A stretch of DNA of 64,000 nucleotides, from IMG/VR virus record IMGVR_UViG_3300030398_000007, one strand, 5' to 3'. Position numbers and translations under genes: made by a program. Below, one piece after another: positions 1-44,349 of this stretch (position 1 is its first letter; each line of letters opens with the position of its first letter). Source of the DNA: a virus. A model generated the notes under the pieces. It saw only the letters and a program-made list of their open reading frames with translations. It was not told where the DNA came from and made no database searches.

Positions 1-367
1 GAATGAGGGTTTAGAGGATCCTGGCCCTCAGTTCAAACATGGAACAACGCTCAGAAAGGTTGAGAACACAGAAACAAAAGGGAACAACCACCCGACCGTC
101 AAACCGACCGAACTCATGAAATGGCTCTGCGGACTTGTGACGCCTGTCGGAGGAATTGTCCTGGATCCGTTTATGGGATCCGGATCAACGGGAAAGGCGG
201 CTATTCTTGAGGGGTTCAGATTCATTGGAATAGAACGCGAGATAGAATATGTAGAAATTGCAACCAAAAGGATTCAGGCTGTTTGTGACACAAAAAACAA
301 AGACAGGAGATTGCCAAAACCAGATCAACTTGAGTCTGGAAAAGATTTTGACAGAACCATGTTGTGA
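1..367 (+). CDS. DNA methyltransferase (beta-class N6A/N4C), C-terminal part; 5' end lies outside the window
   Basis: Frame-2 translation from nt 2 reads ...HPTVKPTELMKWLCGLV...VLDPFMGSGSTGKAA. This is the HPTxKP motif followed by the FxGSG SAM-binding motif in the order typical of beta-class MTases. Confidence 0.8.
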   Translation, partial: NEGLEDPGPQFKHGTTLRKVENTETKGNNHPTVKPTELMKWLCGLVTPVGGIVLDPFMGSGSTGKAAILEGFRFIGIEREIEYVEIATKRIQAVCDTKNKDRRLPKPDQLESGKDFDRTML

Positions 368-787
368 CTCATGTTCAAAAAAAATCAGTTGAAAGATAAA
401 GAATGTATAATAATCAAGAAGAATATTCATAGGATAAAACTTGTCCAGCGGAGATATAAGGCGTGTTTTGTGTTATACTAAAAGTACTCCAGAAGTGGAA
501 GAGACTCAGGAGCGTACCAACTCATTGACAACTGACGATATCGGTCGACGACAAGAGGCGTCGTCTCAGGACGCGCCTCGCAGTCGAGACCATAAGACGG
601 GTCTCTCTTGCTCGTCGATCGGTTGCCGAAACCTTAAAATCATTTTTCACGACCATTTTTGGAGAACGGCCATGACGGACACCAAGACGCAACGACAGAT
701 AAAAAGAACCACACGCCAAATTGGCGTATGGACCGCTGCGTCTGACGGCGACGATCCGCTCATTTGATTTTTCTCTTTGAGTGATTG

Positions 788-830
788 AGGGCCTCCGGGA
801 CGCAGCTTCCGGGGGCCTTTTTTATTTTGA
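788..830 (+). terminator. Rho-independent terminator (GC hairpin gggcctccgg...ccgggggcc followed by a T-run)
   Basis: Stem-loop plus TTTTTTATTTT read directly in the sequence. Confidence 0.6.
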
Positions 831-929
831 CGATTTTTTGGAATTGTATTGGTTGTAAGATTCCAGAAGCTAATTCCCTCGAATTCTAGGTAATTGGAAA
901 ATCGTCAAACGAAAAAGAAAGGCGTAAAC

Positions 930-1005
930 GGACCCATAGCTCAATTGGTAGAGCTGCCGGCTCATAACCGGAGGGTTGCAGGATCGAAACCTGCTGGGTC
1001 CACCA
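930..1005 (+). tRNA. tRNA-Met/Ile2 (anticodon CAT)
   Basis: Cloverleaf with acceptor ggaccca/tgggtcc, anticodon loop ctCATaa, T-arm gcagg/cctgc, encoded CCA. Confidence 0.8.
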
Positions 1006-1010
1006 ATAAT

Positions 1011-1088
1011 TCTGGCTTCGTCTAAAGGCAGGACGCCCGTCTTTGAAACGGGAAATCGTATTGGGTTCGAGTCCCCGAGCCAGAACCA
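1011..1088 (+). tRNA. tRNA-Gln (anticodon TTG), 8-nt variable loop
   Basis: Acceptor tctggct/agccaga + A + CCA; anticodon stem cccgt/acggg with loop ctTTGaa; T-loop TTCGAGT. Confidence 0.6.
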
Positions 1089-1116
1089 AATTGACAAATA
1101 AATAAAGGTTTTTATC

Positions 1117-1193
1117 GCCCCTGTAACTCAGCTGGCTAGAGTATCCCCCTTGTAAGGGGAAAGTCGAGAGTTCAAATCTCTCCGGGGGCTCCA
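1117..1193 (+). tRNA. tRNA-Thr (anticodon TGT)
   Basis: Acceptor gcccctg/cgggggc, anticodon stem tcccc/gggga with loop ctTGTaa, T-loop TTCAAAT, CCA. Confidence 0.8.
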
Positions 1194-1202
1194 TTTTTAC
1201 AT

Positions 1203-1276
1203 TCGGGATTGATCTAACGGTAGGATAACCGATTCTGAATCGGTTTGTCGTGGTTCGAATCCATGATCCCGAGCCA
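1203..1276 (+). tRNA. tRNA-Gln (anticodon CTG)
   Basis: Acceptor tcgggat/atcccga, anticodon stem accga/tcggt with loop ttCTGaa, T-loop TTCGAAT, CCA. Confidence 0.75.
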
Positions 1277-1286
1277 ATTTATTCAT

Positions 1287-1360
1287 GGGCTGTTAGCTCC
1301 AAGGCGGAGCAACTGGCTTTTAACCAGTGGGGCAGGGTCCGATTCCCTGGCAGCTCACCA
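1287..1360 (+). tRNA. tRNA-Lys (anticodon TTT)
   Basis: D-stem gctc/gagc, anticodon stem actgg/ccagt with loop ctTTTaa, T-stem caggg/ccctg, CCA. Confidence 0.75.
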
Positions 1361-1371
1361 TTGAAATTCAT

Positions 1372-1448
1372 GCCCCCGTAGTTCAGTCGACAAGAACGCC
1401 TGACTTCGGATCAGGAGGTCGCAGGTTCAAATCCTGCCGGGGGTTCCA
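1372..1448 (+). tRNA. tRNA-Arg (anticodon TCG)
   Basis: Acceptor gcccccg/cgggggt, anticodon stem cctga/tcagg with loop ctTCGga, T-loop TTCAAAT, CCA. Confidence 0.7.
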
Positions 1449-1461
1449 TAATTAAAGATAC

Positions 1462-1538
1462 GCTTCTGTAGCTCAGTGGTAGAGCAACCCTCTCGTAAAG
1501 GGTAGGTCGTCCGGGTTCAAATCCCACCAGAAGCTCCA
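1462..1538 (+). tRNA. tRNA-Thr (anticodon CGT)
   Basis: Acceptor gcttctg/cagaagc, anticodon stem accct/agggt with loop ctCGTaa, T-loop TTCAAAT, CCA. Confidence 0.8.
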
Positions 1539-1544
1539 ACATAT

Positions 1545-1619
1545 CCGTGGGTAGTCTAATGGCTGGGCACTCGCCTGATTAGCGAGACTATGGAGGTTCG
1601 ATTCCTTCCCCACGGACCA
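1545..1619 (+). tRNA. tRNA-Ile (anticodon GAT)
   Basis: Acceptor ccgtggg/cccacgg, anticodon stem ctcgc/gcgag with loop ctGATta, T-stem ggagg/ccttc, CCA. Confidence 0.65.
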
Positions 1620-1626
1620 GTTTAAC

Positions 1627-1702
1627 GGGTCACTAGCTCAGCAGGAAGAGCGCCTGTCTCTTAAACAGGAGGTTCCCGGATCAAGACCGGGGCGACCCAC
1701 CA
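1627..1702 (+). tRNA. tRNA-Lys (anticodon CTT)
   Basis: Anticodon stem cctgt/acagg with loop ctCTTaa, T-stem cccgg/ccggg, CCA. One acceptor mismatch and an atypical T-loop ATCAAGA. Confidence 0.65.
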
Positions 1703-1713
1703 GGTTTTTGTAC

Positions 1714-1788
1714 GCCCTTGTATCTCAACGGTAGAGACCGTGCATGGTAAGCACGAGGCTGTGGGTTCGACTCCCTCCGAGGGCTCCA
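1714..1788 (+). tRNA. tRNA-Thr (anticodon GGT)
   Basis: Acceptor gcccttg/cgagggc, anticodon stem cgtgc/gcacg with loop atGGTaa, T-loop TTCGACT, CCA. Confidence 0.75.
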
Positions 1789-1795
1789 GCATTAT

Positions 1796-1871
1796 GCCTC
1801 CGTGGCCCAACGGAAGGGAGACCGTTTCCTAAACGGTTTTTATGCAGGTTCGAGTCCTGTCGGAGGCGCCA
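1796..1871 (+). tRNA. tRNA-Arg (anticodon CCT)
   Basis: Acceptor gcctccg/cggaggc, anticodon stem accgt/acggt with loop ttCCTaa, T-loop TTCGAGT, CCA. Confidence 0.75.
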
Positions 1872-1920
1872 TTTAGTGAAGGCAAAACTTGATCTCGCAA
1901 TTTGCGATTTCAAACTTTAG

Positions 1921-1999
1921 GTTCCCGTAGCTCAACAGGAAAGAGCACTCGTCTACGAAACGAGAGGCTGACCGGGTTCAAATCCCTCCGGGGACACCA
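1921..1999 (+). tRNA. tRNA-Arg (anticodon ACG), T-stem imperfect
   Basis: Acceptor gttcccg/cggggac, anticodon stem ctcgt/acgag with loop ctACGaa, CCA. The T-arm pairs poorly, so this may be a degenerate copy of the Arg-ACG tRNA at 43129-43205. Confidence 0.6.
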
Positions 2000-2052
2000 A
2001 ACATGGAGTAATCATTATGCTTCCCAAATTTCCGCCGCCTTTGTAAATGCAC

Positions 2053-2224
2053 GCCCCTGTAGCCTAAAGGACCAGGCACCCGTCTTCTAAACGGTTCGAC
2101 AGCCAAACTGCCATATGCGTGTTCGTCCGTGCGCAGGAAGAGGACGCGCACTCCGGTCCTCGATCCGCGTTACGGACAGGAGAAGTCCGTTCCTTGGACT
2201 CGGACGAGTCACGCCAGGGGCGCC
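2053..2224 (+). ncRNA. Aberrant 172-nt tRNA-like gene: Arg(TCT)-like 5' half and a perfect acceptor 3' end + CCA flanking a ~105-nt GC-rich insert
   Basis: 5' gcccctg pairs with 3' caggggc-g-cca, the same acceptor as tRNA-Arg at 43129. D-stem gcct/aggc, anticodon stem ccgt/acgg with loop ctTCTaa, then a GC-rich hairpin-rich insert (gtgcgc...gcgcac) with no canonical T-arm. Confidence 0.45.
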
Positions 2225-2272
2225 ACCTTCTTAACAGAACTCTCTTAAGGAAAACTATTATCGAGTAACAAC

Positions 2273-2308
2273 TATTTATTAATTAACGGTTATTTATTAA
2301 TTAACAAA
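2273..2308. repeat. Tandem direct repeat TATTTATTAATTAAC x2 in an AT-rich intergenic region
   Basis: Read directly in the sequence. Confidence 0.6.
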
Positions 2309-2375
2309 TCGCAACAAAATGGGGTAGAAAAAACGAAAACGCAGTGGTAATATTATATATTATTGGAGGGGGCCA

Positions 2376-2417
2376 TGATTCGCAAACATATTCACATGAC
2401 GGCCGAAATTCCATATT
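2376..2417 (+). pseudogene. 13-codon remnant (MIRKHIHMTAEIP*) duplicating the 5' end and RBS of the gene at 42712-43053
   Basis: About 90% nucleotide identity over ~45 nt to the reverse complement of 43013-43060, with its own GGAGG RBS. Confidence 0.6.
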
Positions 2418-2429
2418 GAGCCAAAAGAC

Positions 2430-2936
2430 GTGTCCTGGGTATACACACACGTCGGGACAGAGAATCAAATAGCCATGGGGATCCTGGCTCCAGTCTTGTC
2501 CAATGCGTTCAAGGCCGTCGTGGCAAAATACACGGCAGAAGAATTGATTACGAAAAGGAATCTTGTCAAAGCCGAAATAGACGTCCGTCTGGCCAAAAGT
2601 TTATTTACTTACAAAACGCTGGTGGACGGCGTCAACATTACGAACTTCTCCTTCTCTCCTGAATTCGAAAAGGCAATCGAACGCAAACAGGTTGCCCAGC
2701 AACGGTCCTTGCAGGCACAGTACGAACTGGACAGATCCCGTGTCAAGGCGAAGCAAAAAGTTGTCACGGCCAAGGCGGACGCAGACGCCTTGAAACTCAA
2801 ACAGGCCGTTTTGACACCCATGCTTCTCCAGCTTGAGGCAATCAAACACTGGAACGGTGTGTTGCCCATGGTGACAGGATCTGGTGGCGTTCCCTTGATC
2901 AACATTGGTGCACTAAATGGTCACATTAAACGTTGA
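2430..2936 (+). CDS. SPFH/band-7 (prohibitin/HflC-like) domain protein, N-terminally truncated (GTG start; missing TM/N-terminal part)
   Basis: ELITKRNLVKAEI...FSPEFEKAIERKQVAQQ...QYELDRSRVKAKQ is the characteristic SPFH C-terminal coiled region. Confidence 0.55.
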   Translation: MSWVYTHVGTENQIAMGILAPVLSNAFKAVVAKYTAEELITKRNLVKAEIDVRLAKSLFTYKTLVDGVNITNFSFSPEFEKAIERKQVAQQRSLQAQYELDRSRVKAKQKVVTAKADADALKLKQAVLTPMLLQLEAIKHWNGVLPMVTGSGGVPLINIGALNGHIKR

Positions 2937-2966
2937 GTTTAAACTATTTATTTTGGAGGACACATT

Positions 2967-3239
2967 ATGAACGCAAAAACATACAAATGGTTAAATTTAG
3001 TATATCTGGCCGGGTTCCTGACGTCTATTGTTGGATTATTCAATAATGAAATATTCGCTGTCGCGCTTTGTATTGTAATGAGTCTAATGTCATTGGCAGA
3101 ATCATGTGTTTCCAAACGCCTTGGTGAAGGGTCAACCGGATTAAGAGTTTTTAGATACGTCATAACTGCTGTTGTCGGTGGTGGGATTTTCCTGGTGCTT
3201 TTTGAAACATGGCCAGACTTGCCTCGGAACATACTGTGA
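2967..3239 (+). CDS. Small membrane protein (2-3 TM), hypothetical
   Basis: ORF with GGAGG RBS and hydrophobic segments. Confidence 0.45.
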   Translation: MNAKTYKWLNLVYLAGFLTSIVGLFNNEIFAVALCIVMSLMSLAESCVSKRLGEGSTGLRVFRYVITAVVGGGIFLVLFETWPDLPRNIL

Positions 3240-3599
3240 TTGCTGAGGACCTTGCGCTTTCAGGATTTTTATTCCCCACCGGTTTATGACGGGATTTTGG
3301 CTGCGGCTTCTCTGTTACACCTTCAACCTGGAGAACTGCGGTCAGCCATTGAAAAACTCGTTGGAGCACTGGTTCCTGGCGGTGTGTTGTGCGCGACGTT
3401 TAAACGCGGAGAGGGGCCTTGTGTTGAAAAAGACGGGAGATTTTTCTATAAGGTCACCACAGCAAAACTGGAACAGGTGTTTGGTCTGGTCCCTCATATC
3501 GGAAATTTGTGTTTCGAGGAGACTCTTGGCTCCAGCTCTTTCGCACAGCCCACGAAATGGCTCGTTGCCTATGCGACAAAGTCAAAATGGAGGATCTGA
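3240..3599 (+). pseudogene. C-terminal fragment of a class I SAM-dependent methyltransferase (no N-terminal SAM-binding part)
   Basis: DGILAAASLLHL...LVPGGVL... pattern of a Methyltransf_11/25 C-terminal half. Starts at TTG immediately after the upstream stop. Confidence 0.4.
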
Positions 3600-4276
3600 C
3601 TGTGAATATTCCTGTATGGCATGCCGGACATGCTGATATAGCTGCCTTGTCAGGCCTTGACAACTTGGTTTGGGGCGACAAATGCCCGGAACCAACGGGG
3701 ATTATTAAGTTCTGGAATAACCAGGAAAGACACCGCCAGAAAACTCCATGGCTGGGTGCCAGCCTCAGTATCACGCCCCCGTTTTGTTCACTTCCTGGGG
3801 GCAGTGCGATTGCTGAGTTTAAAAACCGTAATGAAGCTGCCTGGGGCAAAATCATAAAACATGGGTATGTCCTCACCGTGTGGCAATCTGAAACTCTTGT
3901 TGGATCCGTGGCCGTTGTTCTATTTAGATACGGAGGGTCCGTACACGGCAGGGTTCATAAGGTCAGCGTTCACCCGGAGCATAGGTTGTCTGGAATTGGA
4001 ACGGCTCTTATGCGGGAAACTATTCGAATGGCCGATAAACACTCGCTTTCCCTAAGTGTTTCGGCAAATCAGGATAATCCCGCTGCGGTACAACTATACA
4101 GAAAGGCAGGCTTCAATATTCTGAACGGGAATGACTTGTCAAAACATACAAACTTGCTGTCCAACGCGGGAATTGAGTTTTCTTTTCATGCTCAAAAAAT
4201 TCAGTTGGTCAGACCTGTTGGGCACTCAAGAGTGACAACCAGAAGCAAAGAAACATTAACATTGGCGCGCGAATAA
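3587..4276 (+). CDS. GNAT family N-acetyltransferase (start uncertain; ORF open from 3509)
   Basis: VHKVSVHPEHRLSGIGTALMRETIRMA...LYRKAGF is GNAT motif A/B. Confidence 0.6.
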   Translation: MEDLTVNIPVWHAGHADIAALSGLDNLVWGDKCPEPTGIIKFWNNQERHRQKTPWLGASLSITPPFCSLPGGSAIAEFKNRNEAAWGKIIKHGYVLTVWQSETLVGSVAVVLFRYGGSVHGRVHKVSVHPEHRLSGIGTALMRETIRMADKHSLSLSVSANQDNPAAVQLYRKAGFNILNGNDLSKHTNLLSNAGIEFSFHAQKIQLVRPVGHSRVTTRSKETLTLARE

Positions 4277-4329
4277 ATGTGTTCCGCGAAAGGACGAAGA
4301 ATAGTGTTGTATTTTCTAAAAACAGTATG

Positions 4330-4467: not shown

Positions 4468-4612
4468 CAGTGATTGGTCCTTGTCATGAGAGAAGATATT
4501 GGCCTTCAGAACTGCCAGTTAAAACATTTGAATCCATTTTATTAACCTGTGGAGATCTTCCGAGAACAATAGAAAAATCCATTGAACTGCGCAATAAAAA
4601 TCTGGAAATGCC

Positions 4613-5011
4613 ATGTCGTTAACGAACAAATCCAAAACGCATACAATATCGTTTTCAGAAGCCAAAAACGTCATTACTAAACTCAATAAGTCTGCCACAA
4701 CTCCACAATCTGTTATTGACTTAAAAATTCCAGGAGTTTATTTCCTGTTTAAGGACGATACTCTCGTTTATATCGGCCAATCGACACACGTTCCAACCAG
4801 AATCGCCGCGCACGTCCGGGAAGGGCGCCTGGAATTCGACAAGGTCTCCTTTATTCGCGTTCCTCCGGAACGGCTGCTGGAAGTCGAGGCTTATTACATT
4901 GATCTGTTGTGGCCGGAAGAAAACCAGACGGGTGAACGTGCCGAAATCAGAAAGCAAATCGAGGAGGCCGAATTGAATCTGGTCGGAGAAACAGAAGGAT
5001 TTGACAATTAG
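4613..5011 (+). CDS. GIY-YIG domain nuclease (stand-alone)
   Basis: GVYFLF...LVYIGQS...R...H...E matches the GIY-YIG catalytic motif pattern. Confidence 0.55.
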   Translation: MSLTNKSKTHTISFSEAKNVITKLNKSATTPQSVIDLKIPGVYFLFKDDTLVYIGQSTHVPTRIAAHVREGRLEFDKVSFIRVPPERLLEVEAYYIDLLWPEENQTGERAEIRKQIEEAELNLVGETEGFDN

Positions 5012-7658: not shown

Positions 7659-7740
7659 AAAACATTATCAATTATTTGTTGCAATTTATAAAAATGGTGA
7701 TATCTATAAATAAAGATATCTTTGTCTCAAAGGAGCAATT

Positions 7741-13865: not shown

Positions 13866-16255
13866 ATGGGCGGAAAAGCCATTAAGCCATTAGCAGAAAA
13901 ACTCGGACGGCCAATCGTCAGACTTTCAAAACAGGGGATCGATCAAATCCAGGACCATATTTCTTTCAGACTTGGAATTCCTTTGATTCAACCAAAATCA
14001 TTTCCGACAAAATCAGATTTTGGGGATTTGGATCTGCTTGGGCAATTTTCAGGAATGAATCCTCAAGTCATACAGGAAAGAATTGGTTCTGTCGGGTTTG
14101 TCCAAAATGGCCCAGTCACAAGCTTTGCCATGCCTGTCGGAGAAAGTTTGTTCCAGGTTGATCTGATTAACGTGCCAGCAAACAAGATTGAATTCACCTC
14201 ACGATATATGGCTTGGGGCGGAGCTGGAAACTTTTTGGGAAAGATTGCGCGGTTTTACGGAATGAAACTTTCAGACGACGCCTTGTATGCCGCCTACAAG
14301 GTTTCAGGAGACAGACATTATCTTCCAATTACAAAAATTTTTTCAGAAGCTCTTGAAATTTTAGGATATGACTATGAAAAATTCGAAAAGGGCTTTTCTT
14401 CAGAACAGGATTTTTTAAAATATGTCAAGGACGGAAAGCTTTTCAAAGAAGAAGCGTTCCTTATTGAAAATTTTCGACACAAAGACCGGGTAAGAGAACG
14501 AAAACGTCCAGCTTTTAAAGAAATTGTTGTTCAAAAAAACACGGTGCTTGAAGGTGAAAAAGAGGAAAAATATTTGACTGAAGACGAATTTAACAAATTA
14601 TCTTTGCGGTACCCGTTACTCAAAGAATCGTTGGTTTTGTTACATAAAAAATTGCAGGAGGAAAAAGACTTCAGCAAAAAATGGAATGGAACCCTGGTCT
14701 CAAACATTACCGGACTTGAGAAGAAAGAGCTTGGTGATTTTATGAGGGATTTTACTTCAAGATTCCATTCTTCCTCTGATTTTCGCAATTGGGTTAAAAG
14801 GACTCCTGATTCAAGTATTCGTTTGGAAATCCTCTCCGAGTATGCGTTCAAGGGAACAAGAGACGATCTGGAACTCCATGTCGTTGGCGGAGCCGTCAGA
14901 AACGCGATTCTTGGGCTAAAGGTCAAGGACATTGACTACGTCGTTTTAGGAGAAACGCGCGAGTCCATGCTTCAAAAAGGGTTTACACTTGTCGGAAAAG
15001 ACTTTCCGGTATTCCTTGGTCCGGACGGACGAGAATATGCTCTGGCCAGAAGAGAACGCCAAACAGGTCATGGTCATACGGCCTTCGACGTCGACACCCG
15101 AAACGTGACACTGGAAGAAGACCTTTACCGGAGGGATCTGACCATAAATGCCATAGCTCTTTCCAGAACCGGAAGAGTAACGGATCCGTTTGGAGGAAGA
15201 GCCGATTTGGAAACAGGTATTTTGAGTAACGTTTCAGACCATTTTTCCGAAGACCCTCTACGTGTTTTGCGAGTGGCAAGATTTTATGCAATTCTCGGAA
15301 GCCACAAAGAGAATGTCAAAATCGCTCCGGAGCTTGAGCACATGTTGTCCTCGATCGTCAATGCAGGCGGATTGGATTCTTTGTCCAAAGAACGAATTTT
15401 TCAGGAGTTGTCCGGCTGTCTCAATACCGACAAGCCGTCATTGGCGCTGAATGTTCTTCATGAGTGTGGTGCACTGGCCAGAATCCTTCCGGAGGTGGCC
15501 AATCTGGACGGAGTGCCCCAATCCCCGCAATGGCACCCGGAAGGCGACGCCTTTGTCCATACGCTGCTGGTGGTCGACAAGGCTGCCGAAATGCACTCCC
15601 CTGCTCCGGTCCGCTTCGCCGCGCTGGTGCATGACGTCGGCAAGGGATTGACACCGAAAGAATTGCTGCCAAAACACCATGGCCACGAAAACAGAGGGGT
15701 TCCGCTTGTGGAGGAAATCTGTGAACGGCTCGGCGTTCCTTCCTCCTGGAAAAAACTGGCGCTGCAGTAACGGAAAATCACCTCAAGCTTCACAAGATTC
15801 CCGAATTAAAGCCAAAAACGATACACGATCTGCTTGAAATGATTGGCGGGTTAAAAAAGGACACACTGACATTCTTCGAGAACGTTATTGCCGCTTGTCG
15901 GGCGGACGATTATGGAAAAAACAGGTTCCAGGAATATCAGCCAGGCGTTTGGGCGAAAAAAATGTCGACGGCTGCCATGTCGATCACCGGAGAGACGCTG
16001 TTGCAAAAAGTGGCTGAAGCTTCGACCTGTGTCCGCGACGTGGACTCGGACGGTCTCGCGAACTACGGCCATAGTTCGGCCTCCGTTGCTTCGGACGTTG
16101 TCCTCGCGAATTCCGACCATAGAACGGTCTCCATTGAAAACGCAACTTGTCCGGAAGGAGAAGAATTTGGCCGAAGACTGCGGGAACTGAGGATTGGTGC
16201 AATCAGGCAACAGAAACATGAACTGAAAAGAATCCTGGAACGGAAACGTTCCTAG
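13866..16255 (+). CDS. cca: CCA-adding tRNA nucleotidyltransferase with HD domain and a ~300-aa N-terminal extension; frameshifted near 15765 (A6 tract)
   Basis: Pol-beta NTase head GGAVRNAILG...DIDYV, RRDLTINA, and HD motifs HTLLVVDKAAEM...ALVHDVGKG. After the stop at 15770 the -1 frame continues TENHLKLHKIPELKPKTIHDLLEMIGG, homologous to the E. coli Cca C-terminus. Confidence 0.7.
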
Positions 16256-20279: not shown

Positions 20280-21359
20280 TTAATTAAATTCAGTTCCGCC
20301 TTTTCGTAGCAAATACTCTTCCGAAACAGACTTCAGAATTTTTCTTTCGCCAATCGCCCGAACAACAACCCCTTCCCTCATATGGACTCCGGATCCGGAA
20401 ACGGACTCTTTTCCGCTGGTTAGTTTTTCGATAACAGCCTTTGAAAATGGCCCGACATAAAGAACCGGCGTTTTTTCGGCAATTTTGATCATTTTGGATA
20501 CCAACGATTCTTGATTCCAGACGAATTGACCGTGTTCCTTGGTGGCAACGTCAAACCACCTGAACGAAAGAGTGCCTCCATATGACAAGTCCTGGACGCC
20601 TTTGCCGAACACCTCTCCAAGGACATAAACGGGATTTTCTGAGCGTCCAAACGCTACAAGTAATTGTTCAGATATTTTTTCGACCGCACGAAGGTAAATG
20701 TTATTCTTATTGCGATCGTTGTTTTTAATTGCAAGACCTTTGGCTCCAAGACCCTTGCTAAAAACGGCAATACGTTCGGAGACCAGATTTTCTGAAAAAT
20801 TCGCAGCTGTATCCGGCGGCAAAATAACCAGGCCACAGAAACTGCCATGAATTTTTTCGGTTATTTCGACGCACTCTCCTTCATTGAAAAAATCCGGAAA
20901 CTTCTTGATATTTTCCACGTCGAATGCCAATGTGTTTTCGGTCCCGAGATTGAATACTTCTCCGGCCATTGCCACCGGTATTTCCGGTTCATACTTTTTG
21001 ATACCAAGTTCTGCAGAAACGTCGTCTCCGACTTTTACCTGAATCGTTTTTCCGTCCGGAAGTTCAAGGAGATTGTTTTTTATTGGATAAACAAGTCCCT
21101 GGCTTAACACCCCTCTTAATTTGATTGCCTTGACGCGATTTTTGTTGCTGCCGGCCAGTCGTCCGACAAGACCAAGCTTTTCTATGACCGGCCCCGGCAA
21201 TACGGACGCTTCCGGAATATAAACGGCCATGTCTCCTGATTTGAACATTCCTTTGGCTACAACCGCCCTGTAATCGCCGATCCTGGCCAGATCCAATGCG
21301 TCTGCGTCCGGGTGCGGTTCGATATCAAGTTTGACGACGTCACAAGAAAAGCTGGACAT
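20280..21359 (-). CDS. ATP-dependent RNA ligase (Rnl2/Rnl5-like nucleotidyltransferase) with N-terminal tRNA-binding OB (EMAP/Trbp111-like) domain
   Basis: N-terminal VVKLDIEPHPDADALDLARIGDYRAVVAKG fits the tRNA-binding OB fold; motif I EKIHGSF (KxHG) as in T4 Rnl2 and the DraRnl/NgrRnl ligases. Confidence 0.65.
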   Translation of the reverse strand: MSSFSCDVVKLDIEPHPDADALDLARIGDYRAVVAKGMFKSGDMAVYIPEASVLPGPVIEKLGLVGRLAGSNKNRVKAIKLRGVLSQGLVYPIKNNLLELPDGKTIQVKVGDDVSAELGIKKYEPEIPVAMAGEVFNLGTENTLAFDVENIKKFPDFFNEGECVEITEKIHGSFCGLVILPPDTAANFSENLVSERIAVFSKGLGAKGLAIKNNDRNKNNIYLRAVEKISEQLLVAFGRSENPVYVLGEVFGKGVQDLSYGGTLSFRWFDVATKEHGQFVWNQESLVSKMIKIAEKTPVLYVGPFSKAVIEKLTSGKESVSGSGVHMREGVVVRAIGERKILKSVSEEYLLRKGGTEFN

Positions 21360-21790: not shown

Positions 21791-21889
21791 TTTTAGTTTT
21801 GAGATCACAAATTGTGATTTCAAGTTTTTGCCACTAGAATGAAAACAATGAAATTTTGTCAAGACAAACTCTTTTGCAGAGGATTCGAT

Positions 21890-25443: not shown

Positions 25444-26643
25444 ATGGAAAAACTTTATACGGAACTGAAAAACGGAAAACTCAGGCTGTGGGCTGACGTC
25501 AACATGGTCGAATCAGACGCTCTGGCTCAATCTGAAAACGTATCGAGTCTGCCGATACTGGCCGGACCTGTAGCCCTTATGCCAGACGTTCACCTTGGAA
25601 AGGGTGCTACTGTCGGAAGTGTCATTCCGACAAGAAAAGCCATAATCCCTGCTTCTGTCGGGGTCGACATTGGTTGCGGCATGCTTGCTGTAAAATTTAA
25701 CATGCGTGCCAATGATTTGCCTCAAAATTTGTCGTCTGTCAGAAGGGCTATTGAATCTGTCGTTCCAGTCGGGTTTAGCGAAAATACGGAAGAAAAAACA
25801 GATCGTGACGCAAGCCAATTGCTGGCTGGTGGGTTTCGCCGAATAGTCGAAAAAGCACCGGGGTTGTTGGACAACCGAAAAACAAAAGATTCATGGACCA
25901 GACAAATCGGTTCTCTTGGTGGAGGAAACCATTTTGTCGAATTGTCATTAGACGAAGAAGGCTCGGTGTGGCTCATGCTGCATTCTGGCTCACGAGGAAT
26001 TGGAAACGCGATTGGCACCTACTATGTTGAACGGGCAAAGGAGTATTCTTTGTCTATGGGATATAATCTCCCGGACAAGGATCTGGCCTGGCTTGACGAA
26101 GGAACTCCTTTTTTCGACGAATACTGGTTTGCATTGGAATGGGCACAACAATATGCAAGGGAAAACAGGCGTGTCATGTATTCCAGGATCCGTACCGTCT
26201 TAAAAGAGTTTTTTCCGCACATTCAAGTAGAAGGAACAATCGTCAATTGTCACCACAACTATTGCAGTATTGAAAAACTGCCTTCCGGAGAAGAGATTTA
26301 TCTGACGCGAAAAGGCGCAATATCTGCAAAGAAGGACGAATGGGGCATTATTCCCGGGAGCATGGGAACCCGTTCGTTTATCGTCAAGGGACTCGGCAAT
26401 GACGCCTCATATCAGTCCTGCTCGCATGGTGCCGGTAGACGTATGAGCAGAGGAAAGGCCAAGAAAGTTTTTACCCAGGAAGATCTGGCCGAACAAACCA
26501 AGGGAGTAGAATGCCGGAAGGACGCAGGTGTAATCGACGAGATTCCTGGTGCCTACAAAGATATTGACGACGTTATGCGCAGGCAGTCAGACCTGGTGAC
26601 GCCGGTACATGTGCTGAAACAGGTTTTGTGTGTAAAAGGTTAA
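25444..26643 (+). CDS. rtcB: RtcB RNA 3'-phosphate ligase
   Basis: GGGNHFVEL, HSGSRGIGN and C-terminal SCSHGAGRRMSRGKAKK (catalytic His); length 399 aa. Confidence 0.85.
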   Translation: MEKLYTELKNGKLRLWADVNMVESDALAQSENVSSLPILAGPVALMPDVHLGKGATVGSVIPTRKAIIPASVGVDIGCGMLAVKFNMRANDLPQNLSSVRRAIESVVPVGFSENTEEKTDRDASQLLAGGFRRIVEKAPGLLDNRKTKDSWTRQIGSLGGGNHFVELSLDEEGSVWLMLHSGSRGIGNAIGTYYVERAKEYSLSMGYNLPDKDLAWLDEGTPFFDEYWFALEWAQQYARENRRVMYSRIRTVLKEFFPHIQVEGTIVNCHHNYCSIEKLPSGEEIYLTRKGAISAKKDEWGIIPGSMGTRSFIVKGLGNDASYQSCSHGAGRRMSRGKAKKVFTQEDLAEQTKGVECRKDAGVIDEIPGAYKDIDDVMRRQSDLVTPVHVLKQVLCVKG

Positions 26644-37285: not shown

Positions 37286-38404
37286 TTATCTGACCAAATC
37301 AATCTCCCCTTCCAAAACCCTCTCCACCAGCGTCGTGCTTTTTCCACTTCGATAATCCTTCACTAAAGCCGCCGGCGCAAAAACATACGACCGGACCCTA
37401 TGACCAAAGTCTGCTGGACCACCAGCCCGGAGATTGGCCTCCTTTTCTTTTCGCCTGGCAGCTCGTTCTTTCTCCGACAAAAGAGATTTCAGCTTTTCTA
37501 TGGCAATGGCCCTGTTCCGTTCCTGTGTTCGTTCCTCCTGGCAGGTTACGACAATTCCGGTCGGTTTGTGTGTTAGTCGAACGGCCGTTTCGACCTTGTT
37601 GACGTTTTGTCCGCCCTTTCCGGAAGACCGAAAGAATCCGATCTCGATATCCTCCTGCAAGATTTCTGTCCGGCTTTCTTCCAGCGGTTCTGTCCATACG
37701 GAGACTCCGGCAAAGGAGGTTTGCCGCCTCCCTCCCCTGCCGTATGGAGAAAATCGGGACAATCGGTGGGAGATCCGGTTTCAGAAGTAAGATCCGACAA
37801 GAGAATGGTCTCTGATTTCAACAGAACGCGCCTGAATCCTGTCTCCGTTTCTTCTGCGTCAATGATTTGCAGGTCGCGTCTTTTTAACAGAATGGCGCCT
37901 TGTATCTCCGCCATAAATGGCGGAGATACAAGGCGTGTTTCACTATTTTTATTGTAACGCACAACATGATATAATGCTTATCATGAAGAATAAAAAGACT
38001 CGGGCTGGAGTCTTTGGCGCGTAGCGCCTAGAAGCTCCTTCCTTTCAGGGAGGGGAGCAGTCACCCTGGCATAACCAAGATACATGGCGGCCAGCATTTG
38101 CTTCAATCCCTCCCGTTCCGGCCAGAATGGACATAAAGAGATTCTCTTCCTGGAGGGATTGTTTGGCGAAACAAGAATCGAGACTGTTTGATTTCTGATA
38201 TTGGATTAACAGAGGAATTGTTTCGGCAAGAATATTTATGGCCTGGTTCGATTCTCTTTCAAAAAAAAGAATGTTGTCAGAATCCAGATACTGGCATTGA
38301 AGAGCTTCTTTTGCCGTTTCCAGGTCGTCAATTGCGGACGACATACGTTTATGTGCCGAAAGCATAATCGAGGCCTGACGAAGCGTTTTGAGCGGTCTGG
38401 ACAA
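37286..38404 (-). pseudogene. Class I peptide chain release factor gene interrupted by the MITE at 37889-38066 and carrying a frameshift at a T-tract near 37775
   Basis: N-part (38404-38070) contains ILAGTGGIEA (RF2 AGSGGTEA). After the MITE: AEETETGFRRVLL (RF ETGVHRLVRKSPFDS), then in the -1 frame [13 protein letters not shown]...[21 protein letters not shown] (GGQ domain). The first ~20 codons of the 37962 ORF are encoded by the MITE inverted repeat. Confidence 0.65.
37889..38066 (+). mobile_element. Miniature IS605-family derivative (LE+RE), second copy, inserted in the release-factor gene
   Basis: acagaatggcgccttgtatctccgccat... (LE) to ...ggaggggagcagtcac (RE); ~90% identical to 4330-4467. 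Confidence 0.75.
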
Positions 38405-42711: not shown

Positions 42712-43053
42712 TTATCTCTCAATGACACTTTCCGGAAACACATTGTCTTTTCGTGTTTGAGTGTTGTCCATAACGGTTGTCAACTCAAATTTTGTTTTTG
42801 CGTGACGTGCGCCAAATGATCGGATTGTGTCGATCGTGGCAGCCAAGTCCATACCCGTGCATTCTCCGGAAATGTCAATAACAAAACTTTCGGCAAAATC
42901 CCAAACTTCGGCCGCAGAAATATTCATTTCGGCAATTGAATTTGTCAATTTTGGCAGAACAGTTTTTGCCCAATCTTCTGCCATAACGTCAATGGCCTTG
43001 TCATTAATAGCAACTGGAATTTCAGCTGTCATGTGAATGTGTTTGCGAATCAT
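42712..43053 (-). CDS. Hypothetical protein (its 5' end is duplicated at 2376-2417)
   Basis: ORF with GGAGG RBS; lies directly downstream of the minus-strand tRNA pair. Confidence 0.4.
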   Translation of the reverse strand: MIRKHIHMTAEIPVAINDKAIDVMAEDWAKTVLPKLTNSIAEMNISAAEVWDFAESFVIDISGECTGMDLAATIDTIRSFGARHAKTKFELTTVMDNTQTRKDNVFPESVIER

Positions 43054-43128: not shown

Positions 43129-43205
43129 TGGCGCCCCTGGCAGGATTTGAACCCGCGACCCTCTCGTTCGTAGCGAGACGCTCTTATCCTCTGAGCTACA
43201 GGGGC
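43129..43205 (-). tRNA. tRNA-Arg (anticodon ACG)
   Basis: Reverse complement gives acceptor gcccctg/caggggc-g-CCA, anticodon stem tctcg/cgaga with loop ctACGaa, T-stem gcggg/cctgc. Confidence 0.8.
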
Positions 43206-43244: not shown

Positions 43245-43320
43245 TGGTGGGTTGCCTCGGAGTCGAACCGAGAGTCTCGCAGCTTAAAAGGCCGGGGTTT
43301 TGCCATTAAACTAGCAACCC
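43245..43320 (-). tRNA. tRNA-Lys (anticodon TTT)
   Basis: Reverse complement gives acceptor gggttgc/gcaaccc-a-CCA, anticodon loop ctTTTaa, T-stem ctcgg/ccgag with loop TTCGACT. Confidence 0.7.
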
Positions 43321-43904: not shown

Positions 43905-44125
43905 AAAAGCAGGGAGGAAGATCCCATTGGGTGTCTCCCTCCCGCGCCGTCGGTCGAAACCGTACGGGGGATACCGTGCCAGCACAACGGAAGCTCGTCA
44001 ACCGCCCAGAGAGACTCCCCAACTCCTTGTGCCATTGGCACACGAGATATGTGTAAAAGGCAAAAAGCTGGATTCCCTCAATGCTTCTACCGAAGGGCTC
44101 CGCAACTCCTTCCACACATGGTGGG
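43905..44125. ncRNA. Candidate structured non-coding RNA (GC-rich island without credible ORF)
   Basis: Local GC is far above the surroundings, with hairpins such as gggagg...cctccc; both strands show only short overlapping ORFs. Confidence 0.25.
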
Positions 44126-44349
44126 CGAGCTAATTAATATTATAGCACAACATTTCTGAAAGTCAAACCTTACATTTTTTTAATCACGACAATGTTCTTT
44201 ATGTTTTTGTTTTACGAACAAACTTTTGCTCATTCCTCACTCAAACAGTCTATTACAACATAAATATTTCTGCAACCATATTTTCAACAATGTGGAAGTC
44301 CTTGTCGTTTTTGTCAATGATCGTTATAATACAAAAAAAGGGAGAATTC

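What the first reader, a model, noticed from the sequence alone, without database searches (positions are those of the whole stretch)
930..2224. tRNA array biased to Lys/Arg/Thr/Gln plus duplicate Arg-ACG and Lys-TTT tRNAs, co-occurring with two RNA ligases and a CCA-adding enzyme
Thirteen clustered tRNA genes (Thr TGT/CGT/GGT; Arg TCG/CCT/ACG(/TCT-like); Lys TTT/CTT; Gln TTG/CTG; CAT; Ile GAT), all with encoded CCA. Extra copies of Arg-ACG and Lys-TTT sit at 43129-43320. Lys, Arg, Gln and Thr isoacceptors are the classic substrates of anticodon nucleases (PrrC, colicin D, VapC/MazF-type and retron/PARIS effectors). The same window carries RtcB (25444), an Rnl-type ATP-dependent RNA ligase with a tRNA-binding OB domain (20280), and a Cca enzyme (13866). 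Together this reads as a tRNA replacement/repair toolkit of the kind phages and mobile elements use against tRNA-targeting defence, or as a degenerate remnant of one.
Basis: partly seen in the sequence, partly recalled or inferred. Interest (0 to 1): 0.7.

Follow-up and report, generated by a model that had tools for sequence, protein, structure and literature searches.

The report
Mobile-element tRNA island plus RNA-repair genes
Twelve spare tRNA genes and one interrupted one sit on a strain-variable, plasmid-like mobile element from acid-mine-drainage bacteria, alongside enzymes that mend damaged tRNAs; this is a known kind of translation insurance for mobile DNA, partly decayed here, with two unusual parts worth a closer look.

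Summary
Two tools tRNA genes at 930-1999 and two more at 43129-43320, and all end in an encoded CCA. The "13th" (2053-2225) is called tRNA-Arg(TCT), with a long variable arm, only once an 81-nt T-loop insertion is removed. RtcB and an Rnl5-type ligase are intact. The Cca gene is frameshifted here and is fused to an uncharacterised polymerase-X-like nucleotidyltransferase.

The sequence is a 42% GC acid-mine-drainage metagenome contig with toxin-antitoxin genes, IS elements, orphan methylases and type I-F cas genes. No housekeeping gene turned up among the ORFs scanned.

A variant contig shows the two tRNA sites are halves of one island (17 tRNAs plus a standalone copy of that nucleotidyltransferase). 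In the window it is split by about 39 kb and has lost three tRNAs. Another variant lacks the array.

The Cca fusion, RadC and Rnl5 stay together in a 57%-identity relative. The nucleotidyltransferase sits next to a Cca gene in an unrelated element.

The "replacement plus repair" reading is therefore plausible and the co-occurrence recurs, but it is untested. No anticodon nuclease was found. Codon compensation and decay remain serious rivals.

Verdict: a new variant of a known kind, of moderate interest.

The parts
930..1005 (+). tRNA, anticodon CAT (called Met; acceptor pairs C4-G69 and C5-G68 resemble E. coli tRNA-Ile2, so it may read AUA); A at position 54; encoded CCA
   Evidence: (63.6 bits); the Ile2 resemblance is from memory of E. 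coli TilS determinants and was not tested
1011..1088 (+). tRNA-Gln (TTG), encoded CCA
   Evidence: (44.7 bits)
1117..1193 (+). tRNA-Thr (TGT), encoded CCA
   Evidence: (65.9 bits)
1203..1276 (+). tRNA-Gln (CTG), encoded CCA
   Evidence: (59.1 bits)
1287..1360 (+). tRNA-Lys (TTT), encoded CCA; unusual C at T-loop position 55
   Evidence: (45.5 bits)
1372..1448 (+). tRNA-Arg (TCG), encoded CCA
   Evidence: (68.9 bits)
1462..1538 (+). tRNA-Thr (CGT), encoded CCA
   Evidence: (60 bits)
1545..1619 (+). tRNA-Ile (GAT), encoded CCA; pyrimidine (U) at position 37
   Evidence: (52 bits)
1627..1702 (+). tRNA-Lys (CTT), encoded CCA; A at position 54
   Evidence: (56 bits)
1714..1788 (+). tRNA-Thr (GGT), encoded CCA
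   Evidence: (57.6 bits)
1796..1871 (+). tRNA-Arg (CCT), encoded CCA
   Evidence: (51.7 bits)
1921..1999 (+). tRNA-Arg (ACG), encoded CCA
   Evidence: (52 bits)
2053..2225 (+). Interrupted tRNA-Arg(TCT)-like gene. It has an intact acceptor stem, D arm and anticodon arm (anticodon at 2086-2088), a 22-nt variable region (2095-2116), G73 and CCA. No tool calls it unless the insertion is removed.
   Evidence: (16.4 bits)
2126..2206 (+). 81-nt G+C-rich structured insertion splitting the T-loop (TTCG|AGT). It is single-copy, matches no Rfam family and forms no bulge-helix-bulge motif.
2375..2413 (+). 39-nt copy of the start of the 113-aa ORF that follows the Arg-ACG2 tRNA. It marks the TCT-like locus and the Arg-ACG2 locus as paralogous 'tRNA-Arg + orf113' units; here the ORF is truncated after 14 codons.
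4470..4471 (.). Rearrangement breakpoint. In variant L022, window 2-4470 continues directly into the reverse complement of window about 44131.
4613..5011 (+). 132-aa ORF with a weak GIY-YIG match; a possible homing-endonuclease-like neighbour of the array
   Evidence: E 0.0016, below the Pfam cutoff; context from PMC8421152
5292..5669 (+). 5' fragment (125 aa) of a calcineurin-like phosphoesterase. Intact copies of 251 aa (L001) and 287 aa (L011) occur on related contigs; in L011 the gene lies directly after the Cca fusion.
13866..15770 (+). Cca fusion gene, frameshifted allele. Residues 1-330 are a polymerase-X-like nucleotidyltransferase domain, followed by the class II CCA-adding head and neck and the start of the HD domain.
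15749..16255 (+). Out-of-frame remainder of the Cca gene (matches residues 629-757 of the intact 757-aa form)
20280..21359 (-). Rnl5-type ATP-dependent RNA ligase (N-terminal OB fold plus nucleotidyltransferase domain; motif I lysine read as EKIHG)
25444..26643 (+). RtcB 3'-phosphate/5'-hydroxyl RNA ligase, full length
37286..38404 (-). Release-factor-2-like gene broken into pieces: a weak PCRF match at 38045-38404 and the GGQ/RF-1 domain at 37286-37762. IS-end-like repeats lie at 37882-38064.
42712..43053 (-). 113-aa ORF of unknown function that follows the tRNA pair
43129..43205 (-). tRNA-Arg (ACG), second copy; 78% identical to the array copy; shares its acceptor stem with the TCT-like gene
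   Evidence: (65.7 bits)
43245..43320 (-). tRNA-Lys (TTT), second copy; below 70% identity to the array copy
   Evidence: (54.6 bits)
44005..44131 (.). Segment present twice in variant L022, flanking the 1.8 kb that carries tRNA-Cys, tRNA-Glu, tRNA-Asn and the standalone nucleotidyltransferase. It is the other breakpoint of the rearrangement, and the 1.8-kb segment is absent from the window.

Best explanation
The locus is one half of an accessory tRNA island carried by a large, AT-rich (42% GC), plasmid-like mobile element of acid-mine-drainage bacteria.

Proposed mechanism:
1. The 12 closely spaced, same-strand, CCA-encoding genes are transcribed as one precursor and cut into tRNAs.
2. These give the cell a second, element-owned supply of whole isoacceptor families: all Thr, Lys and Gln anticodons, Ile, and four of five Arg anticodons.
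3. Translation of element genes therefore continues when host tRNAs of these families are cleaved, modified or otherwise depleted by tRNA-targeting toxins or defence systems.
4. A second layer, encoded elsewhere on the same element, repairs damaged tRNAs. RtcB rejoins 2',3'-cyclic-phosphate/5'-OH breaks. The Cca-HD enzyme, with its fused polymerase-X-like nucleotidyltransferase, restores 3' ends. Rnl5 seals 3'-OH/5'-phosphate nicks.

In this particular window the kit is partly decayed.

Shown: the genes, their integrity or breakage, the mobile and variable context, and the repeated linkage. Inferred: transcription, charging, the nature of the threat, and every enzymatic step.
For: - tRNA calls and encoded CCA ends.
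- The set consists of complete isoacceptor families rather than only the codons the element prefers. It includes readers of AGG (0.14 of Arg codons), CAG (0.38 of Gln) and ACG (0.24 of Thr), while Leu, Ser and Gly, the most used amino acids, have none.
- The context is accessory and mobile. HipBA, an MntA-like gene, two TnpB genes, four DNA methylases, RadC, DUF5131 and type I-F cas genes are present, and no housekeeping gene was found among the ORFs scanned.
- The array is absent from one variant (L009).
- It is contiguous with five more tRNAs and a standalone copy of the Cca N-terminal domain in another variant (L022).
- The Cca fusion, RadC and Rnl5 are syntenic at 57% protein identity.
- A tRNA-Thr and an intact Metallophos gene flank the Cca fusion at 44% identity.
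- The nucleotidyltransferase lies 10 nt from a Cca-HD gene in an unrelated element.
- RtcB and Rnl5 are intact.
- Replacement and repair have literature precedent in phages (PMC10264068, PMC11464382, PMC11555353). Plasmid-borne arrays are reported to be induced under translational stress (PMC8421152).
Against: - No anticodon nuclease or other tRNA-targeting defence gene was recognised among the proteins scanned, and the host genome is unknown.
- No host tRNAs were available, so 'divergent replacement copies' is untested.
- No sigma-70-like promoter was detected upstream of the array, and there are no expression data.
- The repair genes lie 12-24 kb from the array, on both strands, among unrelated genes.
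- Cca plus nucleotidyltransferase modules occur in elements with no tRNA genes nearby, so they may be independent modules.
- The only AGA reader is interrupted, and the Cca gene is frameshifted in this allele.
- The enrichment for ANN-codon decoders is also what an AT-rich element in a GC-richer host would need under codon compensation.
Confidence: 0.4

Rival explanations
1. Codon and amino-acid usage compensation. The AT-rich element uses codons that a GC-richer host decodes poorly (AAA, AGA/AGG, ACA, CAA, ATA/ATT), and the array simply tops up those tRNAs. The RNA-repair genes are unrelated cargo.
For: - In 26 ORFs of the window, GC3 is 0.41 and the A-ending codons dominate: AAA 0.75, AGA 0.40 (the commonest Arg codon), ACA 0.41, CAA 0.62, ATA 0.23.
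- Eight of 12 array anticodons (9 of 13 with the TCT-like gene) read A-starting codons (p about 3e-4 to 1.5e-3). That is the class enriched in AT-rich coding sequence.
- The literature assigns a roughly 250-kb putative plasmid with a distinct tetranucleotide signature to Leptospirillum (PMC2745766). Leptospirillum genomes are about 54-58% GC (from my own knowledge).
Against: - The array also carries readers of the element's least-used codons (AGG, CAG, ACG).
- It lacks tRNAs for other heavily used A/T-ending codons in multi-isoacceptor families: GGA, CTT/TTA/TTG, TCT/TCA, GTT, CCA, GCA.
- The variant island adds tRNA-Cys although Cys is 1.0% of codons.
- The AGA reader, the most needed tRNA under this model, is the interrupted one.
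- The host is not established.
Confidence: 0.3
2. Decaying or neutral cargo. The locus is the remains of a once larger horizontally acquired tRNA array, kept silent and eroding, with no current function. Its co-occurrence with repair genes only reflects the general accumulation of translation-related cargo on large mobile elements.
For: - The tRNA-Arg(TCT) gene is interrupted.
- The island is split by about 39 kb and lacks three tRNAs and one gene relative to variant L022.
- The flanking SPFH and Metallophos genes are fragments.
- The Cca gene is frameshifted and the RF2-like gene is broken.
- One variant lacks the array.
- No promoter-like site was found.
- Several tRNAs carry rare nucleotides: U37, C55, A54.
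- Arrays acquired by horizontal transfer are reported as poorly expressed (PMC8421152).
Against: - Twelve of 13 genes keep full cloverleaves with scores well above threshold and intact CCA ends.
- The array is 100% identical in three further contigs (L012-L014) and differs at 3 positions in a fourth (L020), so it persists in the population.
- RtcB and Rnl5 are intact, and intact Cca alleles coexist with the frameshifted one.
Confidence: 0.2
3. Housekeeping tRNA operon of a 42% GC bacterial chromosome. These would be the organism's only copies of these isoacceptors.
For: The tRNAs are well formed, and some bacteria cluster their tRNA genes.
Against: - No housekeeping gene was found among the ORFs of the 64 kb that were scanned; the content is toxin-antitoxin, IS, methylase, cas and anti-restriction-like genes.
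- The array is absent or rearranged in variants that are otherwise near-identical where they overlap the window.
- Two diverged copies each of Arg-ACG and Lys-TTT lie within one island.
- Neither the interrupted tRNA nor the Cca N-terminal domain was found in 185,579 species-representative genomes.
Confidence: 0.02
4. The element is a large (jumbo) phage, and the tRNAs plus repair enzymes are a phage infection kit of the T4 or huge-phage type.
For: tRNA clusters together with RNA ligases, CCA enzymes, release factors and CRISPR-Cas genes are typical of huge phages (from my own knowledge). An HNH endonuclease is present.
Against: - There was no match in 50,697 phage records or in IMG/VR.
- None of ten unannotated proteins matched a PHROG structural or packaging family.
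- Two-partner secretion genes, HipBA and IS605-family elements fit a plasmid or ICE better.
- The source literature describes plasmids from this site that carry CRISPR loci and, in one case, a tmRNA (10.1101/538918).
Confidence: 0.05

Closest known systems
Horizontally transferred tRNA array units / L-arrays on plasmids, ICEs and phages (Tran et al. 2016; PMC5966550; PMC8421152; Acidithiobacillus ICE arrays, PMC5468388)
   Same: - Dense, same-strand, non-periodic run of supernumerary tRNA genes on a mobile element.
- Strain-variable presence.
- Endonuclease-like neighbours.
- Occurrence in acidophile mobile elements.
- Little sequence similarity between members, which argues against recent duplication.
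   Different: - There are only 12-13 genes here (17-18 in the fullest variant), below the formal threshold of 20.
- The set covers a few complete isoacceptor families, whereas the long arrays described carry 20-43 genes and one Acidithiobacillus segment is reported to hold a complete tRNA set.
- It is accompanied on the same element by RtcB, Rnl5 and a Cca fusion. The tRNA-array papers I text-searched for CCA, RNA ligase or nucleotidyltransferase (PMC5966550, PMC8421152, PMC5468388) returned no relevant mention.
Phage tRNA replacement and repair against tRNA-targeting defence (T4 Pnkp/Rnl1 versus PrrC; T5 tRNA-Lys versus PARIS, PMC11464382; phage tRNAs versus retron effectors, PMC11555353; anticodon-loop variants, PMC10264068)
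   Same: - A mobile element carries its own tRNAs for families that known tRNases attack (Lys, Arg, Gln, Thr and others).
- It also carries RNA ligases able to reseal broken tRNA.
   Different: - The element is plasmid-like, not a demonstrated phage.
- The ligases are RtcB and Rnl5 rather than Pnkp plus Rnl1/Rnl2.
- No polynucleotide kinase-phosphatase was found.
- No cognate nuclease is known.
- Resistance-type anticodon-loop changes cannot be assessed without host tRNAs.
Proteobacterial multifunctional CCA addition/repair protein (E. coli Cca type, NCBIfam NF008137)
   Same: Residues 336-747 of the intact allele align end to end with the family profile (444.6 bits) and include the class II head, the RNA-binding region and the HD phosphohydrolase domain. 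Identity to annotated proteobacterial proteins is 45-50%.
   Different: - It carries an extra 330-residue N-terminal polymerase-X-like nucleotidyltransferase domain that the ~420-aa annotated Cca proteins lack.
- It scores just under the equivalog cutoff (451).
- The copy in the window is frameshifted.
Rnl5 RNA ligases (Deinococcus radiodurans DraRnl, Naegleria gruberi NgrRnl; TIGR02306)
   Same: An N-terminal OB fold is followed by the ligase nucleotidyltransferase domain. The protein scores above the equivalog cutoff, and NgrRnl is the closest solved structure.
   Different: The known enzymes seal 3'-OH/5'-phosphate nicks in duplex RNA. No link to tRNA has been shown for them, and none is shown here.
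RtcB RNA ligases (RtcBA repair operon; PrfH-RtcB2 ribosome repair; archaeal/eukaryal tRNA-splicing ligase)
   Same: Full-length RtcB domain (1.2e-120), with Thermus and Pyrococcus RtcB as the closest solved structures.
   Different: - No RtcA, RtcR or archease was recognised among the neighbouring ORFs scanned.
- It scores below the cutoffs of both the E. coli-type and the PrfH-linked equivalogs.
- The broken RF2-like gene is 11 kb away, not in an operon with it.
Intron-containing and structurally non-canonical tRNAs (archaeal bulge-helix-bulge introns at non-canonical positions; bacterial group I introns in anticodon loops; class II and allo-tRNAs, PMC7609411, PMC5389517)
   Same: An otherwise intact cloverleaf is interrupted by a discrete intervening sequence. 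A long variable arm with G73 is reminiscent of the serine-type class II tRNAs.
   Different: - The insertion lies in the T-loop of a gene on a bacterial-type element.
- It forms no bulge-helix-bulge motif.
- At 81 nt it is too short for a group I intron.
- It matches no Rfam family.
- The acceptor/T stem configuration is the canonical 7/5, not 8/4 or 9/3.

Membership tests
tRNA (Rfam RF00005), 12 array genes and 2 distal genes | Covariance-model score at or above the gathering threshold (29 bits), plus an independent cloverleaf call | tested here: met
   44.7-68.9 bits; ARAGORN calls all 14
tRNA (Rfam RF00005), TCT-like gene 2053-2225 | Covariance-model score at or above the gathering threshold, or an ARAGORN call, on the sequence as it stands | tested here: not met
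   16.4 bits. ARAGORN finds nothing, even with its intron option. It calls the gene only after about 81 nt are deleted in silico.
[quoted passage not shown] 2016 definition, as quoted in PMC5966550) | At least 20 tRNA genes in the region | tested here: not met
   12 genes (13 with the interrupted one) in the window; 17 (18) in the fullest variant, L022
[quoted passage not shown] 2016 definition) | Density of at least 2 tRNA genes per kb | tested here: met
   12 genes in 1.07 kb (about 11 per kb); 17 genes in 6.4 kb in L022 (about 2.7 per kb)
Horizontally transferred L-array (PMC8421152) | Supernumerary to the host set, patchy distribution, carried on mobile elements | tested here: inconclusive
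   The mobile context and presence/absence among variants are shown. Redundancy with the host set could not be tested because the host genome is unknown.
Phage-type tRNA repair pathway (T4 Pnkp plus Rnl1) | A polynucleotide kinase-phosphatase and an Rnl1/Rnl2-type ligase | tested here: not met
   No kinase-phosphatase was found among the ORFs scanned. The ATP-dependent ligase is Rnl5 type. RtcB could replace the whole pathway.
RtcB family | Full-length PF01139 domain | tested here: met
   1.2e-120, profile positions 1-426 of 426; homologous to solved RtcB structures. Ligase activity was not tested.
Rnl5 (TIGR02306, DRB0094 family) | Equivalog score above the cutoff; N-terminal OB fold plus ligase domain | tested here: met
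   230.3 bits against a cutoff of 151; PF21189 plus PF09414; NgrRnl is the best PDB match
Multifunctional CCA addition/repair protein (NF008137) | Equivalog score above the cutoff and an uninterrupted reading frame | tested here: inconclusive
   The intact allele P0002 scores 444.6 against a cutoff of 451, over profile positions 2-406 of 409. The window allele is frameshifted at about 15750.
Archaeal-type spliced tRNA intron | Bulge-helix-bulge motif (two 3-nt bulges around a 4-bp helix) at the exon-intron junctions | tested here: not met
   An exhaustive scan around 2100-2222 found no motif with both flanking helices. The junctions lie in a continuous 13-bp helix with one bulged U.
Group I intron in a tRNA gene | A match to the group I covariance model, a length of about 200 nt or more, and insertion in the anticodon loop | tested here: not met
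   No Rfam match at E up to 10; the insertion is 81 nt and lies in the T-loop
Anticodon nuclease or tRNA-targeting defence system encoded nearby | A match to a known defence or tRNase family | tested here: inconclusive
   Ten proteins scanned against PADLOC gave only weak AAA-type hits. Pfam found no PrrC, RloC, VapC or colicin-type domain in the ORFs scanned. Small ORFs and the rest of the element were not covered.
Family X polymerase-like nucleotidyltransferase (N-terminal domain of the Cca fusion) | Pol-beta-type palm fold with three catalytic carboxylates | tested here: met
   The model has pLDDT 87. Foldseek finds Pol lambda, mu, beta and ASFV Pol X at E about 1e-6, with TM up to 0.57 normalised to the target. 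D54, D56 and D99 are invariant in five sequences sharing down to 37% identity. Activity and substrate were not tested.

The most novel reading that the evidence does not exclude
The 81-nt insertion in the T-loop of the tRNA(UCU) gene is a genuine intervening sequence. On this reading it is excised by an unknown nuclease and the halves are joined by the element's own RtcB. The product would be a bacterial class-II-type tRNA that reads AGA, the element's commonest Arg codon, yet carries the serine-type identity marks (long variable arm and G73). That would be protein-dependent tRNA splicing in a bacterial mobile element, possibly with ambiguous or reassigned AGA decoding.
Probability: 0.03. Interest if true: 0.85.

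Novelty: new variant of a known kind. Interest (0 to 1): 0.5.

Why it matters
tRNA arrays on plasmids and ICEs are widespread, but their function is still argued over: codon compensation, stress response or anti-defence. This locus offers a natural test case.

- A small array made of complete isoacceptor families sits on a plasmid-like element that also carries three kinds of RNA-end repair enzyme.
- Population variants exist with, without and with a rearranged island. Comparing them in the existing Richmond Mine metagenome and metatranscriptome series could show whether the island matters.

Two by-products could open new biochemistry.

- The first is an uncharacterised family of about 270 polymerase-X-like nucleotidyltransferases. 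A gene fusion, a gene adjacency and a position inside a tRNA island all tie it to the CCA-adding enzyme, which suggests a second tRNA 3'-end rebuilding activity used by mobile elements.
- The second is a tRNA gene cleanly interrupted in the T-loop.

If the anti-toxin reading is right, it would extend phage-style tRNA counter-defence to plasmid-like (possibly conjugative) elements.

Tried and rejected
1. Phage origin. There was no megablast match to phage records, no IMG/VR match to the interrupted tRNA or the Cca N-terminal domain, and no PHROG structural hit.
2. Close relatives of the array. Distant blastn against plasmids and phages found only generic single-tRNA similarity of 72-83%.
3. Source genome. 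An exact 30-mer of the interrupted tRNA and a profile of the Cca N-terminal domain found nothing in 185,579 representative genomes. The host therefore stays unassigned, and the planned comparison with host tRNAs was impossible.
4. Covariation test of the interrupted tRNA. All five further copies (L012-L014, L020, L022) are identical or differ by one unpaired base, A2172G, so there is nothing to count.
5. The insertion as a known RNA, an archaeal-type intron, a group I intron or a repeated MITE. I found no Rfam hit, no bulge-helix-bulge motif, and a single copy in the window and in all related loci held.
6. The neighbouring GNAT as a tRNA-acetylating toxin. Only generic acetyltransferase matches appeared.
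7. TpsA as a CdiA-like tRNase toxin. No toxin domain was found in the C-terminal 452 residues.
8. Archease, RtcA or PrfH partners next to RtcB. None was recognised.
9. A sigma-70 promoter for the array. None was found on the + strand.
10. Goltsman et al. 2009, the original description of the plasmid, could not be read in the library.

Full report
**What is there**

ARAGORN and the Rfam tRNA model agree on twelve + strand tRNA genes between 930 and 1999. Their anticodons are CAT, TTG, TGT, CTG, TTT, TCG, CGT, GAT, CTT, GGT, CCT and ACG. Both tools also call two - strand genes at 43129-43205 (ACG) and 43245-43320 (TTT). Rfam scores are 44.7-68.9 bits against a gathering score of 29. Every one of the 14 genes ends in an encoded CCA, and the spacers within the array are 5-49 nt.

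The alignments to the tRNA consensus show ordinary cloverleaves with a few rare nucleotides. Ile-GAT has U at position 37, Lys-TTT has C at position 55, and the CAT and Lys-CTT genes have A at position 54. The two 'duplicate' pairs are old paralogues: the Arg-ACG copies are 78% identical and the Lys-TTT copies less than 70%.

**The thirteenth gene**

Neither tool calls it as it stands (Rfam 16.4 bits). It nevertheless folds into a cloverleaf with these parts:
- a perfect 7-bp acceptor stem, G73 and CCA
- a D arm
- an anticodon loop CUUCUAA
- a 22-nt variable region
- a 5-bp T stem whose loop (TTCG|AGT) is split by 81 nt (2126-2206)

In the unprocessed form the T stem continues as a 13-bp helix. 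Deleting about 81 nt in silico makes ARAGORN call a 92-nt tRNA-Arg(TCT) with a long variable arm.

The insertion is single-copy in the window and in all related DNA I hold. It matches no Rfam family, cannot form a bulge-helix-bulge motif and is far too short for a group I intron.

The flanks show that this locus and the Arg-ACG gene at 43129 are paralogous units. They share the acceptor stem, the downstream spacer and the first 39 nt of the 113-aa ORF. That ORF is truncated after 14 codons in the array copy.

Five further contigs carry the same sequence, with at most one change in an unpaired base, so covariation cannot be tested. My reading is a remodelled, probably dead paralogue. A functional spliced tRNA is not excluded.

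**What the element is**

The window is 42% GC throughout. Its proteins occur on Richmond Mine (Iron Mountain) acid-mine-drainage contigs from JGI and Logan, and in the 'unassigned contigs' deposit ACXJ01. It comes from a 67.4-kb metagenome contig.

Recognisable genes include:
- four DNA methylases and a two-partner secretion pair
- RadC, DUF5131 and an MntA-like nucleotidyltransferase
- HipBA
- two IS605-family TnpB genes with inverted repeats
- two AAA ATPases
- a complete type I-F cas operon

None of the ORFs scanned is a housekeeping gene.

There is no match in phage records or IMG/VR, and no PHROG structural hit. The site's literature describes a roughly 250-kb putative Leptospirillum plasmid with its own tetranucleotide signature (PMC2745766), plasmids that carry CRISPR loci, and one plasmid with a tmRNA (bioRxiv 10.1101/538918). 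I could not read the original plasmid paper. The assignment of this contig to that plasmid, and to Leptospirillum as host, is an inference.

**The island and its variants**

Related contigs give the most informative result.
- Three contigs (L012-L014) carry the array exactly as in the window, and a fourth (L020) differs at three positions.
- One variant (L009) has the same TpsB gene but different DNA upstream and no tRNAs.
- A third configuration (L022) joins window 2-4470 directly to the reverse complement of window about 44131-41274.

L022 holds 17 tRNA genes on one strand within 6.4 kb. These are the 12-gene array and then Cys-GCA, Glu-TTC and Asn-GTT, followed by the Lys-TTT/Arg-ACG pair. 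Between the Asn gene and the pair lies an uninterrupted 383-codon ORF, 55% identical to the N-terminal domain of the Cca fusion.

The window's two tRNA sites are therefore halves of a single island. In this configuration they are separated by about 39 kb of inverted or inserted DNA, and a 1.8-kb segment has been lost between two copies of a roughly 127-bp repeat. IS-end-like hairpin repeats lie near the junctions.

**The repair genes**

RtcB is full length (PF01139, 1.2e-120) and related to solved RtcB ligases. It falls below the cutoffs of both the E. coli-type and the PrfH-linked equivalogs.

The ATP-dependent ligase is an Rnl5 enzyme (TIGR02306, 230 bits against a cutoff of 151). Naegleria NgrRnl is its closest solved relative. 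Its OB domain is the Rnl5 N-terminal fold, not a demonstrated tRNA-binding module.

The Cca gene is more unusual. Residues 336-747 of the intact 757-aa allele align end to end with the proteobacterial multifunctional CCA addition/repair protein (444.6 bits against a cutoff of 451; 45-50% identity). The first 330 residues are an extra domain with no Pfam match. A confident model of that domain (pLDDT 87) resembles family X polymerases, and three carboxylates are invariant.

In the window this gene is frameshifted near 15750 into 634-aa and 138-aa ORFs. An independent Logan assembly shows the same allele, while intact 757-780-aa alleles coexist in the population.

Two further genes fit the theme. 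The 5' fragment of a calcineurin-like phosphoesterase lies at 5292-5669; intact copies occur on related contigs, and in L011 the gene directly follows the Cca fusion. An RF2-like gene at 37286-38404 is broken.

**Is the co-occurrence more than coincidence?**

- A relative whose Cca fusion is only 57% identical keeps RadC and an Rnl5 ligase within 5 kb, as in the window.
- A 44%-identity relative has a tRNA-Thr(CGT) 1.3 kb upstream and an intact phosphoesterase directly downstream.
- The extra domain defines a family of about 270 mostly standalone 330-360-aa hypothetical proteins.
- In an unrelated mobile element that standalone gene starts 10 nt after a 422-aa Cca-HD gene.

Fusion, adjacency and position inside a tRNA island together link this nucleotidyltransferase to tRNA 3'-end metabolism. 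However, those other elements have no tRNA genes within the flanks I fetched. The repair module and the tRNA island may therefore be separable units that often, but not always, travel together.

**Function**

The array is not a random sample of anticodons (post hoc tests).
- It holds all Thr, Lys and Gln anticodons.
- It holds Ile-GAT plus a CAT gene whose acceptor stem resembles tRNA-Ile2. That resemblance is my recollection of the E. coli TilS determinants and was not tested.
- It holds four of five Arg anticodons.

The element's own codon usage favours AAA, AGA, ACA, CAA and ATT/ATA, which fits codon compensation. Three observations fit that model poorly:
- The array also carries readers of the least-used codons.
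- It lacks tRNAs for Leu, Ser, Gly, Val, Pro and Ala, which are used as much or more.
- The variant island adds tRNA-Cys.

Complete families fit better with replacing whole sets of tRNAs.

Codon compensation stands at about 0.3 and silent decay at about 0.2. Nothing in my data shows expression, charging, a cognate nuclease or enzyme activity. I found no sigma-70-like promoter upstream and no defence or tRNase family among the proteins scanned.

**Comparison with what is known**

The locus works like the horizontally transferred tRNA arrays of plasmids, ICEs and phages, including those of acidophilic Acidithiobacillus (PMC5966550, PMC8421152, PMC5468388). It also works like phage replacement-and-repair strategies (PMC10264068, PMC11464382, PMC11555353).

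It fails the formal 'array unit' criterion of 20 genes while meeting the density criterion. It lacks the T4-type kinase-phosphatase and Rnl1. What is new is:
- the combination on a plasmid-like element
- the Cca fusion and its nucleotidyltransferase family
- the T-loop-interrupted class-II-like tRNA

I rate it a new variant of a known kind, with interest 0.5.

Noticed in passing
window 13866-14855; L022 5534-6685 (-); L026 10001-11083; L025 10001-11017: The N-terminal 330 residues of the Cca fusion define an uncharacterised, Pfam-less family of about 270 mostly standalone proteins with a polymerase-X-like fold and a conserved catalytic triad. The family is linked to Cca by a gene fusion, by a 10-nt gene adjacency in an unrelated element, and by a copy inside a tRNA island. 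It may be a new tRNA 3'-end repair enzyme.
   Followed up: partly
window 37286-38404 (-): A release-factor-2-like gene is carried by the element but broken. The GGQ/RF-1 domain ORF (158 aa; 181 bits to prfB positions 193-345) and a weak PCRF-domain ORF are separated by IS-end-like repeats at 37882-38064.
   Followed up: partly
window 54813-62788 (+): A complete type I-F cas operon (Csy1, unassigned 289-aa ORF in the Csy2 position, Csy3, Csy4/Cas6f, Cas1, Cas2-3 fusion) lies on the same mobile element. No CRISPR array was found inside the window.
   Followed up: partly
L022 1-9821 (contig Ga0188182_0219): This alternative population configuration holds 17 tRNAs contiguously, including Cys-GCA, Glu-TTC and Asn-GTT, which the window lacks. 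It shows that the window arrangement arose by an inversion or insertion of about 39 kb plus a 1.8-kb deletion between repeats of about 127 bp.
   Followed up: yes
window 930-2225 and L022: The tRNA set is enriched for decoders of A-starting codons: 9 of 13 in the array and 10 of 16 distinct anticodons in the island (hypergeometric p about 3e-4). In bacteria this is the class that carries t6A37. The array's Ile-GAT gene has U at position 37 and so cannot carry it. Whether this reflects AT-rich codon usage or something to do with modification is unexplained.
   Followed up: partly
window 37990-38064 / 45205-45279 and 37882-37935 / 46410-46463; TnpB genes at 41315-42523 (-) and 45238-46389 (-): Two IS605-family TnpB genes are present, with a 75-nt perfect and a 54-nt imperfect inverted repeat that carry hairpin motifs. 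Similar sequence lies at the L022 junction, so these elements probably mediated the rearrangements of the tRNA island.
   Followed up: partly
window 35492-37123 (-) and 21839-22252 (+): The element encodes HipA/HipB and an MntA-like nucleotidyltransferase (NCBIfam score below the family cutoff). Its downstream 97-aa partner was not recognised as a HEPN toxin. HipA-family kinases target translation.
   Followed up: no
window 5692-11196 (+): A two-partner secretion pair (TpsB, and a 1151-aa TpsA with a TPS domain) lies directly downstream of the array region. The TpsB 5' end marks a recombination breakpoint between variants. No toxin domain was recognised in TpsA.
   Followed up: partly
window 2266-2307: An AT-rich 18-nt tandem repeat (2.3 copies, TAACAACTATTTATTAAT) lies just after the interrupted tRNA. 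It may be a protein-binding or iteron-like site.
   Followed up: no
window 4613-5011 (+) and 31940-32548 (+): A weak GIY-YIG-like ORF lies 2.4 kb from the array, and a clear HNH endonuclease (PHROG 5200, 1.7e-42) lies elsewhere in the window. Homing endonucleases are recurrent neighbours of tRNA arrays in the literature and may move them.
   Followed up: no
window 49441-53396 (-): Two paralogous proteins of about 635 aa have C-terminal AAA ATPase domains and only weak defence-family similarity. A 536-aa AAA protein also lies next to the Cca/nucleotidyltransferase pair in the unrelated element L026.
   Followed up: no
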